Part shown: in pieces, positions 41,738 to 64,000 of the stretch
How the letters are laid out: every line of letters starts with the position of its first letter
How positions within the stretch are numbered: position 1 is the first letter of the stretch
Assembly: GCF_009914755.1 (NCBI RefSeq)
Contig: NC_060936.1
Strand: one strand, 5' to 3'
Length of the DNA: 64,000 nucleotides
Source of the DNA: the human T2T-CHM13v2.0 reference genome, Homo sapiens
The notes under the pieces: model-generated
Told to the model about the DNA's origin: nothing
The model's input: the letters and a program-made list of their open reading frames with translations, nothing else
Databases searched by the model: none
Made by a program: the position numbers and the translations under genes

Positions 41738-44700
41738 TCAATTCCCACCTGTGAGTGAGAATATGTGGTGTTTGGTTTTTTGTTCTTGCGATAGTTTACT
41801 GAGAATGACGATTTCCAATTTCATCTATGTCCCTACAAAGGACATGAACTCATCATTTTTTATGGCTGCATAGTATTCCATGGTGTATATGTGCCACATT
41901 TTCTTAATCCAGTCTATCATTGCTGGACATTTGGGTTGGTTCCAAGTCTTTGCTATTGTGAATAGTACCACAATAAACATACGTCTGCATGTCTTTATAG
42001 CAGCATGATTTATAGTCCTTTGGGTATATACCCAGTAATAGGATGGTTGGGTCAAATGGTATCTCTAGTTCTAGATCCCTGAGGAATTGCCACACTGACT
42101 TCCACAATGATTGAACTAGTTTACAGTCCCACCAACAGTGTAAAAGTGTTCCTATTTCTCCACATCCTCTCCAGCACCTGTTGTTTCCTGACTTTTTAAT
42201 GATCGCCATTCTAACTGGTGTGAGATGGTTTCTAATTGTGGTTTTGATTTGCATTTCTCTGATGGCCAGTGATGGTGAGCATTTTTTCATGTGTTTTTTG
42301 GCTGCATAAATGTCTTCTTTTGAGAAGTGTCTGTTCATATCCTTCACCCACTTCTTGATGGGGTTGTTTGTTTTTTCTTGTAAATTTGTTTGAGTTCATT
42401 GTAGATTCTGGATATTAGCCCTTTGTCAGATGAGTAGGTTGTGAAAATTTTCTCCCATTTTGTAGGTTGCCTGTTCACTCTGATGGTAGTTTCTTTTGCT
42501 GGGCAGAAGCTCTTTAGTTTAATTAGACCCCATTTGTCAATTTTGGCTTTTGTTGTCATTGCTTTTGGTGTTTTTGACATGAAGTCCTTGCCCATGCCTA
42601 TGTCCTGAATGGTAATGCCTAGGTTTTCTTCTAGGGTTTTTATGGTTTTAGGTCTAATGTTTAAGTCTTTAATCCATCTTGAATTAATTTTTGTATAAGG
42701 TGTAAGGAAGGGATCCAGTTTCAGCTTTCTACATATGGCTAGCCAGTTTGCCCAGCACCATTTATTAAATAGGGAATCTTTTCCCCATTGCTTGTTTTTG
42801 TCAGGTTTGTGAAAGATCAGATAGTTGTAGATATGCGGCGTTATTTCTGAGGGCTCTGTTCTGTTCCATTGATCTATATCTCTGTTTTGGTACCAGTACC
42901 ATGCTGTTTTGGTTACTGTAGTCTTGTAGTATAGTTTGAAGTCTGGTAGCGTGATGCCTACAGCTTTGTTCTTTTGGCTTAGGATTGACATGGCGATGCG
43001 GGCTCTTTTTTGGTTCCATATGAACTTTAAAGTAGTTTTTTCCAATTCTGTGAAGAAAGTCATTGGTAGCTTGATGGGGATGGCATTGAATCTATAAATT
43101 ACCTTGGGCAGTATGGCCATTTTCATGATATTGATTCTTCCTATCCTTGAGCATGGAATGTTCTTCCATTTGTTTGTATCCTCTTTTATTTCATTGAGCA
43201 GTGGTTTGTAGTTCTCTTTGGAGAGGTCCTTCACGTCCCTTGTAAGTTGGATTCCTAGGTATTTTATTCTCTTTGAAGCAATTGTGAATGGGAGTTCACT
43301 CATGATTTGACTCTCTGTCTGCTACTGGTGTATAAGAATGCTTGTGATTTTTGTACATTGATTTTGTATCCTGAGACTTTGCTGAAGTTGCCTATCAGCT
43401 TAAGGAGATTTTGAGCTGAGACGATGAGGTTTTCTAGATATACAATCATGTCATCTGCAAACAGGGACAATTTGACTTCCTCTTTTCCTAATTGAATACC
43501 CTTTATTTCCTTCTCCTGCCTAATTGCCCTGGCCAGAAGTTTCAACACTATGTTGAATAGGAGTGGTGAGAGAGGGCATCCCTGTCTTGTGCCCGTTTTC
43601 AAAGGGAATGCTTCCAGTTTTTGCCCATTCAGTATGATATTGGCTGTGGGTTTGTCATAGATAGCTCTTATTATTTTGAGATATGTCCCATCAATACCTA
43701 ATTTATTGAGAGTTTTTAGCATGAAGGTTGTTGAATTTTGTCAAAGGCCTTTTCTGCATCTATTGAGATAATCATGTGGTTTTTGTCTTTGGTTCTGTTT
43801 ATATGCTGGATTACATTTATTGATTTGCATATATTGAACCAGCCTTGCATCCCAGGGATGAAGCCCACTTGATCATGTTGCATAAGCTTTTTGATGTGCT
43901 GCTGGATTCAGTTTGCCAGTATTTTATTGAGGATTTTTGCATCAATGTTCATCAAGGATATTGGTCTAAAATTCTCTTTTATGGTTGTGTCTCTGACAGG
44001 CTTTGGTATCAGGATGATGCTGGCCTCATAAAATGAGTTAGGGAGGATTCCCTCTTTTTCTATTGATTGGAATAGTTTCAGAAGGAATGGTACCAGTTCC
44101 TCCTTGTACCTCTGGTAGAATTCGGCTGTGAATCCATCTGGTCCTGGACTCTTTTTGGTTGGTAAGCTATTGATTATTGCCACAATTTCAGAGCCTGTTA
44201 TTAGTCTATTCAGAGATTCAATTTCTTCCTGGTTTAGTCTTGGGAGGGTGCATGTGTTGAGGAATTTATCCATTTCTTCTAGACTTTCTAGTTTATTTGC
44301 ATAGAGGTGTTTGTAGTATTCTCTGATGGTAGTTTGTATTTCTGTGGGATCGGTGGTGATATCCCCTTTATCATTTTTTATTGCGTCTATTTGATTCTTC
44401 TCTCTTTTCTTCTTTATTAGTCTTGCTAGCAGTCTATCAATTTTGTTGATCTTTTCAAAAAACCAGCTCCTGGATTCATTGATTTTTTGAAGGGTTTTTT
44501 GTGTCTCTATCTCCTTCCGTTCTGCTCTGATTTTAGTTATTTCTTGCCTTCTGCTAACTTTTGAATGTGTTTGCTCTTGCTTTTCTAGTTCTTTTAATTG
44601 TGATGTTAGGGTGTCAATTTTGGATCTTTCCTGCTTTCTCTTGTGGGCATTTAGTGCTATAAATTTCCCTGTACACACTGCTTTGAATGTGTCCCAGAGA

Positions 44701-61142: not shown

Positions 61143-64000
61143 ATGACAGGATCAAATTCACACATAACAATATTAACCTTAAATGTAAATGGGCTATATG
61201 CTTCAATTAAAAGACACAGACTGGCAAATTGGATAAAGAGTCAAGACCCATCAGTGTGCTGTATTCAGGAAACCCATCTCACGTGCAGAGACACACATAG
61301 GCTCAAAATAAAGGGATGGAGGAAGATCTACCGAGCAAATGGAAAACAAAAAAAGGCAGGGGTTGCAATCCTAGTCTCTGATAAAACAGACTTTCAACCA
61401 ACAAAGATCAAAAGACACAAAGAAGGCCATTACATAATGGTAAAGGGAGCAATTCAACAGGAAGCGCTAACTATCCTAAATATATATGCACCCAATACAG
61501 GAGCACCCAGATTCATAAAGGAAGTCCTTAGTGACCTACAAAGAGACTTAGACTCCCATACAATAATAATGGGAGACTTTAACACCCCACTGTCAACATT
61601 AGACAGATCCACGAGACAGAAAGTTAACAAGGATGTCCAGAAATTGAACTCAGCTCTGCACCAAGCAGACCTAATAGACATCTACAGAATTCTCCACCTC
61701 AAATCAACAGAATATACATTCTTTTCAGCACCACACAACTATTTCAAAATTGACCACATAGTTGGAAGTAAAGCACTCCTCAGCAAATGTAAAAGAACAG
61801 AAATTATAACAAACTGTCTCTCAGACCACAGTGCAATCAAACTAGAACTCAGGATTAAGAAACTCATTCAAAACAGCTCAACTACATGGAAACCGAACAA
61901 CCTGCTCCTGAATGACTACTGGGTACATAATGAAATGAAGGCAGAAATAAAGATGTTCTTTGAAACCAATGAGAACAAAGACACAACATACCAGAATCTC
62001 TGGGACACATTCAAAGCAGTGTGTAGAGGGAAATGTATAGCACTAAATGCCCACAAGAGAAAGCAGGAAAGATCTAAAATTGACACCCTAACATCACAAT
62101 TAAAAGAACTAGAAAAGCAAGAGCAAACACATTCAAAAGCTAGCGGAAGGCAAGAAATAACTAAAATCAGAGCAGAACGGAAGGAGATAGAGACACAAAA
62201 AAACCTTCAAAAAATCAATGAATCCAGGAGCTAGTTTTTTGAAAAGATCAACAAAACTGATAGACTGCTAGCAAGATTAATAAAGAAGAAAAGAGAGAAG
62301 AATCAAATAGATGCAATAAAAAATGATAAAAGGGGATATCATCACCGATCCCACAGAAATACAAACTACCATCAGAGAATACTGTAAACACCTCTATGCA
62401 AATAAACTAGAAAATCTAGAAGAAATGGATAAATTCCTTGACACATACACCCTCCCAAGACTAAGCCAGGAAGAAGTTGAATCTCTGAATAGACCAATAA
62501 CAGGCTCTGAAATTGAGGCAATAATTAATAGCTTACCAACCAAAAAGAGTCCAGGACCAGATGGATTCACAGCCGAATTGTATCAGACGTACAAGGAGCA
62601 GCTGGTACCATTCCTTCTGAAACTATTCCAATCAATAGAAAAAGAGGGAATCCTCCCTAACTCATTTTATGAGGCCAGCATCATCCTGATACCAAAGCCT
62701 GGCAGAGACACAACCAAAACAGAGAATTTTAGACCAATATCCTTGATGAACATTGATGCAAAAATACTGGCAAACCAAATCCAGCAGCACATCAAAAAGC
62801 TTATCCAACATGATCAAGCGGGCTTCATCCCTGGGATGCAAGGCTGGTTCAACATATGAAAATCAATAAACTTAATGCAGCATATAAACAGAGCCAAAGA
62901 CAAAAACCACATGATTATCTCAAAAGACGCAGAAAAGGCCTTTGACAAAATTCAACAACCTTCATGCTAAAAACTCTCAATAAATTGGGTATTGATGGGA
63001 TGTATCTCAAAATAATAAGAGCTATCTATGACAAACCTACAACCAATATCATACTGAATGGACAAAACCTGGAAGCATTCCCTTTGAAAACTGGCACAAG
63101 ACAGGGATGCCCTCTCTCACCACTCCTATTCAACATAGTGTTGGAGGTTCTGGCCAGGGCAATCAGGCAGGAGAAGGAAATAAAGGGTATTCAATTAGGA
63201 AAAGAGGAAGTCAAATTGTCCCTGTTTGCAGATAACATGATTGTATATCTAGAAAACCCCATCGTCTCAGCCCAAAATTTCTTTAAGCTGATAAGTAATT
63301 TCAGCAAACTCTCAGGATACAAAATCAATGTGCAAAAATCACAAGCATTCGTATACATCAATAACAGTCAAACAGCCAAATCATGAGTGAACTCCCATTC
63401 ACAATTGCTTCAAAGAGAATAAAATACCTAGGAATCCAACTTACAAGGGATGTGAAGAACCTCTTCAAGGAGAACTACAAACCACTGCTCAATGAAATAA
63501 AGGAGGATACAAACAAATGGAAGAACATTCCATGCTCATGGGTAGGAAGAATCAATATCATGAAAATGGGCATTCTGCCCAAGGTAATTTATTGATTCAA
63601 TGCCATCCCCATCAAGCTACCAATGACTTTCTTCACAGAATTGGAAAAAACTACTTTAAAGTTCATATGGAACCAAAAAAGAGCCCGCATTGCCAAGTCA
63701 ATCCTAAGCCAAAAGAACAAACCTGGAGGCATCAAACTACCTGACTTCCAACTATACTACAAGGCTACAGTAACCAAAACAGCATGGTACTGGTACCAAA
63801 ACAGTGATATAGACCAATGGAACAGAACAGAGCCCTCAGAAATAATGCCACATATCTGCAACTATCTGATCTTTGAGAAACCTGACAAAAACAAGCAATG
63901 GGGAAAGGATTCCCTATTTAATAAATGGTGCTGGGAAAACTGGCTAGCCATATGGAGAAAGCTGAAACTGGATCCCTTCCTTACACCTTATACAAAAATT
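61143..64000 (+). pseudogene. L1 ORF2p, disrupted; first 363 aa open
   Basis: TAG at 62232-62234; later stops and frameshifts; RT motif mutated to FADN. Confidence 0.92.

What the first reader, a model, noticed from the sequence alone, without database searches (positions are those of the whole stretch)
44518..62179. Head-to-head L1s of different subfamilies share private variants: ectopic gene conversion across an inverted 6-kb repeat
Seen: the left (-) and right (+) L1s differ at subfamily-type ORF1 positions (IQTKGK..CITRITNTEKCLKE vs VQTHGK..WLTRITNAEKSLKD). Yet both carry the same bases at five sites where the L1PA consensus I recall differs: cagGAAaac (46087/60614), aaaGAGaag (45820/60881), FQPT for FKPT (45305/61395), KRHK for KRDK (45284/61416) and RAERKE for RAELKE (44518/62179). 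None is a CpG-decay change. Inference: patchy conversion between the inverted copies, 11.4 kb apart, which are also an NAHR substrate for inverting 47.7-59.05 kb. The left TSDs still pair, so this haplotype is not net-inverted.
Basis: partly seen in the sequence, partly recalled or inferred. Interest (0 to 1): 0.72.

Follow-up and report, generated by a model that had tools for sequence, protein, structure and literature searches.

The report
Neighbouring L1 copies swap short patches
Two dead LINE-1 jumping genes lying back to back on human chromosome 12 belong to different lineages yet share six rare letters that no other copy carries together, and rare letters cluster among neighbouring LINE-1s genome-wide, most likely because DNA repair copies short patches between nearby elements.

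Summary
The left (-) and right (+) L1s are full-length insertions of different lineages, 92% identical, each with its own target-site duplication, so there is no net inversion. All five named alleles are real, and there is a sixth (43878/62808). Exact genome-wide probes find each allele in 8-97 places (the common allele, counted at one site: 3297); only these two copies carry all six, which rules out a dispersed sublineage. Identity windows show no significant tract (permutation P 0.18), so the patches are short or old. The pair is part of a larger pattern. Seven more L1s within 0.8 Mb carry one or two of the alleles, and an inverted L1 piece at 10.6 kb shares a private doublet with the left copy. 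Genome-wide, carriers of one rare allele lie within 20 kb of each other in 15 pairs (11 inverted) against about 0.3 expected. The FQPT allele forms swarms of up to 9 copies per Mb. Best reading: repeated short-tract non-allelic gene conversion among neighbouring L1s, known for Alu, not found described for L1 in 10 searches. Ape orthologues and duplication filtering were not possible.

The parts
41413..47684 (-). Left full-length L1 with its TSDs (47673-47684 and 41413-41424, 11 of 12 match). Young group; keeps the 5' UTR segment that the youngest panel copies lack (L1PA4 or long L1PA3; label recalled). ORFs broken.
59040..64000 (+). Right full-length L1, older group (L1PA5/6-like; label recalled). 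5' TSD 59040-59054; the identical 3' copy lies past the window at window-equivalent 65182-65196. ORFs broken.
47685..59039 (.). Spacer between the two 5' TSDs, about 11.4 kb; not net-inverted
60603..60661 (+). Patch with rare allele 60614 and a young-type allele at 60650 in the right copy; left copy 46040-46098; likely left-to-right
60852..60950 (+). Patch with rare allele 60881; left copy 45751-45849
61334..61448 (+). Patch with FQPT (61395) and KRHK (61416); left copy 45252-45366. A third copy at chr12:55.05 Mb shares both alleles inside a 57-nt identical run (61373-61429).
62146..62202 (+). Patch with RAERKE (62179) and an old-type allele at 62186 in the left copy; left copy 44495-44551; likely right-to-left
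62806..62818 (+).
60106..60147 (+). Possible patch: old-type allele at 60119 in the left copy (46597; 1 of 33 young, 7 of 9 old copies)
43205..43234 (-). 30-nt run of the left L1 with a private doublet (43217, 43221; each 0 of 42 panel copies) that the right copy lacks
10592..10621 (+). Matching 30-nt run with the same doublet (10605, 10609) in the inverted 5' part of a third L1 (about 8791-11164), 32.6 kb from the left copy and opposite to it

Best explanation
Two independently inserted L1s of different lineages share six rare alleles in scattered short patches, most likely left by repeated non-allelic gene conversion in which a break in one copy was repaired on a nearby copy without crossover. 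Shown: separate lineages, intact TSD pairs, shared alleles, their genome-wide rarity, and the clustering of carriers. Inferred: germline non-crossover repair (SDSA-like), tracts of tens to about a hundred bases, traffic in both directions, partners up to several hundred kb away, and a lean towards inverted neighbours.
For: Left groups with young copies and right with old copies in both trees; a left+right clade is rejected for 59950-60500 (p-AU 0.0002); 52 of 81 diagnostic sites split left-young/right-old. Six shared rare alleles exceed all 306 young-by-old panel pairs (maximum 5). Only these two copies are on all six genome-wide lists; of five outside copies on two lists, two are chr12 neighbours. 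The chr12:55.05 Mb copy differs from left and right at 25 and 31 of 648 nt yet shares both alleles in a 57-nt run. An independent doublet links the left copy to the inverted piece at 10.6 kb. Outside our pair, same-allele carriers within 20 kb: 11 inverted and 4 direct pairs against about 0.15 expected each; within 100 kb 29 and 16 against about 0.7 each; a control site not shared by the pair also gave 1 and 1 against 0.08 each.
Against: No significant identity tract (P 0.18) and only mildly longer runs around shared sites (69 vs 44 nt, P 0.044). About nine in ten rare alleles of each copy are not shared. The run at 62808 is 13 nt, so that site may be homoplasy. A left+right clade is not rejected for 60500-62750 (p-AU 0.2). 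Direction rests on only 9 old copies, and one candidate (62547) fell: 48 dispersed copies have the right copy's haplotype there. The background for clustering comes from 100 listed places on chr1 only; pairs within a cluster are not independent; segmental duplications were not filtered. One haploid assembly, no ape orthologues.
Confidence: 0.85

Rival explanations
1. Inversion toggling: repeated crossovers between the inverted copies swapped internal segments, and ordinary allelic recombination in the spacer then put two copies of a segment on one haplotype.
For: The geometry fits, and recurrent inversion between inverted repeats, including an L1PA3 pair, is documented (PMC3961182 passages). 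An even number of flips would leave the TSDs paired.
Against: Diagnostic sites show no long swapped block: left stays young and right old between patches. It needs many flips with close breakpoints, and it cannot explain the copies at 10.6 kb or 55.05 Mb.
Confidence: 0.05
2. Homoplasy: the same mutations arose separately in both copies, helped by regional or site-specific mutation bias.
For: Each allele has tens of unrelated carriers genome-wide; 1.4-1.6 shared alleles are expected by chance; the pair was picked because it looked odd.
Against: Six alleles of different mutation types, one of them 8 in 3305; linked doublets shared with third copies; clustering at sites and places not selected for it.
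Confidence: 0.05
3. Duplication or assembly artefact: shared alleles come from segmental duplications, palindromes or cross-mapped polishing reads.
For: Likely true for some genome-wide clusters: the chr9/chr2 set is near-identical (0.35-1.7% apart); the chrY pair and part of the chrX 50.8-50.9 Mb set look like mirrored arms.
Against: Does not fit this locus: copies differ by 4-8%, have separate TSDs and unrelated flanks, and two partners are 33 kb and 180 kb away.
Confidence: 0.04
4. A dispersed minor L1 sublineage carried these alleles and produced both copies.
For: None found beyond the sharing itself.
Against: No third copy is on more than two of six lists; the two copies fall in different groups.
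Confidence: 0.01

Closest known systems
Gene conversion among neighbouring Alu elements (Aleshin and Zhi 2010, seen only as cited in PMC6598467 parts 1-2 and PMC8230782 passages)
   Same: Non-diagnostic mutations shared between nearby copies; mosaic diagnostic sites; rate falls with distance.
   Different: Here the elements are 6-kb L1PA; sharing reaches far past the cited 10 kb (33 kb, 180 kb, swarms of 0.8-1 Mb); there is a lean to inverted partners and strong differences between sites.
Non-allelic conversion among LTR elements on the human Y (Trombetta 2016, as summarised in PMC6598467)
   Same: Clusters of derived alleles with identifiable donors; patchwork from several copies.
   Different: That was polymorphism data on Y LTRs; this is a single autosomal haplotype and non-LTR elements.
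L1-mediated inversions and rearrangements (PMC9675761, PMC3961182, PMC2603318; passages)
   Same: Inverted L1PA pairs as homologous recombination partners.
   Different: Those are crossover products; the L1 inversions had a median similarity of 97.1%. Here TSDs are intact, identity is 92%, and the outcome is non-reciprocal.
ISX/ISY Helitron conversion in Drosophila miranda (as summarised in PMC6598467)
   Same: A linked doublet spreading among TE copies by conversion.
   Different: Driven by selection on a binding motif; no function is shown for the L1 alleles.

Membership tests
Non-allelic gene conversion between TE copies | Copies have separate origins | tested here: met
   Separate TSDs; different tree groups, p-AU 0.0002 in the 5' region
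Non-allelic gene conversion between TE copies | Excess of shared rare, non-CpG, non-diagnostic alleles | tested here: met
   6-7 against 1.4-1.6 expected; above all 306 cross-group pairs
Non-allelic gene conversion between TE copies | Sharing not explained by a common source lineage | tested here: met
   Only the pair is on all six genome-wide lists
Non-allelic gene conversion between TE copies | Significant tract of raised identity | tested here: inconclusive
   Longest-run permutation P 0.18; runs around shared sites longer, P 0.044. Low power for short tracts.
Non-allelic gene conversion between TE copies | Dependence on proximity | tested here: met
   15 carrier pairs within 20 kb against about 0.3 expected, own pair excluded; duplications not filtered
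Non-allelic gene conversion between TE copies | Non-reciprocal transfer shown by the ancestral state in orthologues | not testable with these tools
   The tool holds no relatives for this genome
L1-mediated NAHR inversion | Swapped flanks/TSDs or chimeric elements | tested here: not met
   Both TSD pairs match their own element; no lineage switch along either copy
L1PA full-length TPRT insertion | 5' UTR, ORF1, ORF2, A-rich tail, TSD | tested here: met
Named L1PA subfamily (PA3/4 vs PA5/6) | Match to Dfam/Repbase consensus | not testable with these tools
   No consensus library; groups are empirical, labels recalled; the 129-bp deletion marker is from 10.1101/429613

The most novel reading that the evidence does not exclude
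L1 copies form megabase-scale conversion networks, and one site in the ORF2 endonuclease region (the TTTAAA at 61392-61397) is under allele-specific drive: copies with the intact site are broken and repaired from neighbours that lost it, so the FQPT allele sweeps through local L1s (7 copies over 0.8 Mb here, 9 and 7 on chrX, 4 and 3 on chr10), an ectopic form of hotspot erosion. 51 of 85 FQPT carriers are clustered (11 probably duplications) against 6 of 54 at a control site 54 nt away.
Probability: 0.25. Interest if true: 0.85.

Novelty: new variant of a known kind. Interest (0 to 1): 0.62.

Why it matters
If nearby L1s routinely trade short patches, private variants do not date or relate L1 copies independently, and apparent recurrent SNVs inside L1s may be templated from a neighbour. 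It would show that germline repair samples 92-95% identical templates over tens to hundreds of kb, give a countable genome-wide record of ectopic homology search and its orientation bias, and offer a route for binding-site variants to move between fixed L1s. The test is cheap: one T2T genome plus ape orthologues. No effect on MUCL1 or TESPA1 is shown, and both L1s have broken ORFs.

Tried and rejected
Sliding-window identity and a GENECONV-like permutation: no significant tract. Sites 61738 and 62328: alignment artefacts, dropped. Four panel copies (L013, L048, L052, L053) dropped as near-identical siblings of L009, and nine repeat fetches merged. Site 62547 as proof of left-to-right transfer: rejected, 48 dispersed copies share the haplotype and none lie within 300 kb of each other. 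Old inverted duplication of one element: rejected by TSDs and trees. Local retrotransposition of one source: rejected for the 55.05 Mb copy, which shares only a short patch. GC-biased conversion as the sole cause of the FQPT swarms: other weak-to-strong alleles cluster far less (5 of 49 at 500 kb; 0 of 8 at 300 kb). The human PRDM9 13-mer (recalled) has no match in 60500-63600. Aleshin and Zhi 2010 could not be opened. PMC5237266, 10.1101/2020.01.10.893024 and PMC13192797 passages gave nothing on conversion between neighbouring L1s.

Full report
Anatomy. A self-comparison of the window gives an inverted match of 42686-47664 with 59056-64000, 92.2% over 4984 nt. Both are full-length L1s with broken ORF1 and ORF2. 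The left copy has a 12-nt TSD matching at 11 places (47673-47684, 41413-41424). The right copy has a 15-nt TSD (59040-59054) found again unchanged at window-equivalent 65182-65196. Each element is flanked by its own TSD, so both are separate insertions and the 11.4-kb spacer is not net-inverted.

Lineages. I fetched 60 loci by similarity to either copy. Two are the copies themselves, nine are repeats of the same element and four are near-identical siblings of L009, leaving 45: 34 young, 9 old, 2 unclassified. The panel is biased to close relatives and thin in old copies. Trees on 25 of the 45 place left with the young group and right with the old group in both regions. A left+right clade is rejected for 59950-60500 (p-AU 0.0002) but not for 60500-62750 (p-AU 0.2). 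Of 81 diagnostic sites, 52 split left-young/right-old, 19 have the young allele in both, 6 the old in both, and 4 are other; many of the 19 fit a transitional lineage for the right copy. Left keeps the 5' UTR segment that the youngest panel copies lack, the 129-bp deletion fixed within L1PA3 (10.1101/429613 passages). The labels L1PA3/4 and L1PA5/6 are recalled, not tested.

Shared alleles. All five named alleles are in both copies and in 1, 1, 2, 0 and 0 of 29 others. A systematic scan adds 62808/43878 and the old-type 62186/44511; 61738 and 62328 are artefacts beside indels. In 60500-63600 left has 57 rare alleles and right 73; 9 are shared, 7 after the drop, against 1.4-1.6 expected, Poisson P(>=6) 0.003-0.007. 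With at most two other carriers and CpG columns excluded the pair scores 8 (6 without artefacts); the maximum in 306 young-by-old pairs is 5, while three pairs inside the oldest group score 21-22 through subfamily alleles.

Genome-wide counts (exact probes, which miss copies with a nearby mismatch). RAERKE 8 places against 3297 for the common allele; KRHK 57; 60881 49; 60614 27; 62808 97; FQPT 85; FQPT with KRHK 4. Common-allele counts were obtained for one site only. Only left and right are on all six lists; five outside copies are on two lists, none on three. The sublineage rival is refuted.

Result against. Identity windows show no significant tract: permutation P 0.18, and the longest run (115 nt) is ordinary among 264 old-by-young pairs (median 112.5). 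Runs around the shared sites average 69 nt against 44 (P 0.044). So the evidence is allele sharing, not homogenisation; tracts must be short, or old and since broken. Direction is suggestive only: right-to-left at 62186 and 60119, left-to-right at 60650 and 61064; 62547 was discarded.

A local network. Seven other L1s between chr12:54.755 and 55.56 Mb carry one or two of the alleles. The one I could read (55.05 Mb, 648 nt) differs from left at 25 and right at 31 places and has both FQPT and KRHK inside a 57-nt run identical to both. Inside the window, the inverted 5' part of the L1 at about 8791-11164 shares with the left copy two alleles 4 nt apart, each in 0 of 42 panel copies, in a 30-nt identical run; the two differ at 54 of 1161 positions overall. 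That doublet could not be counted genome-wide.

Genome-wide pattern. Leaving out our pair, carriers of the same rare allele on the six lists and a control site lie within 20 kb in 11 inverted and 4 direct pairs (about 0.15 expected each) and within 100 kb in 29 and 16 (about 0.7 each). The control site, not shared by the pair, gave 1 inverted and 1 direct pair within 100 kb against 0.08 each; the 62547 haplotype list gave 0. The expectation comes from 100 listed chr1 places, ignores L1-dense regions, counts pairs in one cluster separately, and duplications are not filtered, so the fold excess is rough and the inverted lean is not established. FQPT stands out: 51 of 85 carriers are in 500-kb clusters (nine on chr9 and two on chrY probably duplications), against 17 of 57 for KRHK, 23 of 97 for 62808, 5 of 49 for 60881 and 6 of 54 for the control. 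It alters one of only two TTTAAA hexamers in 60500-63600. Why it swarms is unexplained; allele-specific drive is the boldest reading, unfiltered duplications the dullest.

Mechanism (inferred from established recombination biology). A germline break in one L1 invades a nearby homologous L1 in cis, copies tens to about a hundred bases and is resolved without crossover; repeated since the younger copy inserted, this leaves a patchwork in which roughly a tenth of rare alleles are shared. Confidence 0.85 for conversion; lower for direction, orientation bias and drive.

Literature. Seen: PMC6598467 parts 1-2 of 4; passages of PMC8230782, PMC9675761, PMC3961182, PMC2603318, PMC5237266, 10.1101/2020.01.10.893024 (40), PMC13192797, 10.1101/429613 (61). 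Conversion among neighbouring Alus within about 10 kb is established. Ten searches (one was for subfamily markers) listed no paper describing it for neighbouring L1s or this locus, judged mostly from titles and abstracts; the library lacks most subscription papers, including the key Alu study, and no supplements were read, so inversion catalogues may list this locus.

Verdict. Real feature, known kind of process, with an extension (L1, long range, site-specific swarms) that is directly testable. Interest 0.62.

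Noticed in passing
window 8791-11164: A third L1 with a 5' inversion (junction near 9963-9967) and a 10-nt TSD, the shape expected from twin priming; its inverted part shares a doublet with the left L1.
   Followed up: partly
G000:C23:50385377-51420637 and C23:129446784-130286263: Swarms of 9 and 7 FQPT carriers in mixed orientation; four at 50.8-50.9 Mb look like mirrored palindrome arms.
   Followed up: no
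G000:C12:97628088-97699259; C6:78875400-78922748; C10:20356011-20576365; C10:45151515-45369421: Three to four neighbouring L1s sharing one rare allele (KRHK or FQPT): candidate conversion networks.
   Followed up: no
G000:C2:161459205/161470599; C8:129832326/129838067; C11:114637846/114649047; C5:50976175/50987546; C2:45068551/45083203; C5:50042774/50056194; C6:7796798/7815701; C23:109090285/109108585: Close inverted L1 pairs (6-19 kb) sharing a rare allele; ready test cases. All close inverted KRHK pairs are head-to-head.
   Followed up: no
L009, L013, L048, L052, L053: Near-identical chr9/chr2 copies (0.35-1.7% apart in the pairs listed), likely one L1 inside a segmental duplication; inflates FQPT counts.
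   Followed up: partly
window 25291-27137: Older L1 (about 75% to the young copies) that matches in both orientations, suggesting another internal inversion.
   Followed up: no
window 60160-60175 and 61730-61740: The right copy has a 15-nt in-frame deletion early in ORF1 and a 3-nt deletion in ORF2 relative to the left copy.
   Followed up: no
one search list: At the control site T>A carriers outnumber T>G 54 to 8: strong site-specific mutation bias.
   Followed up: no
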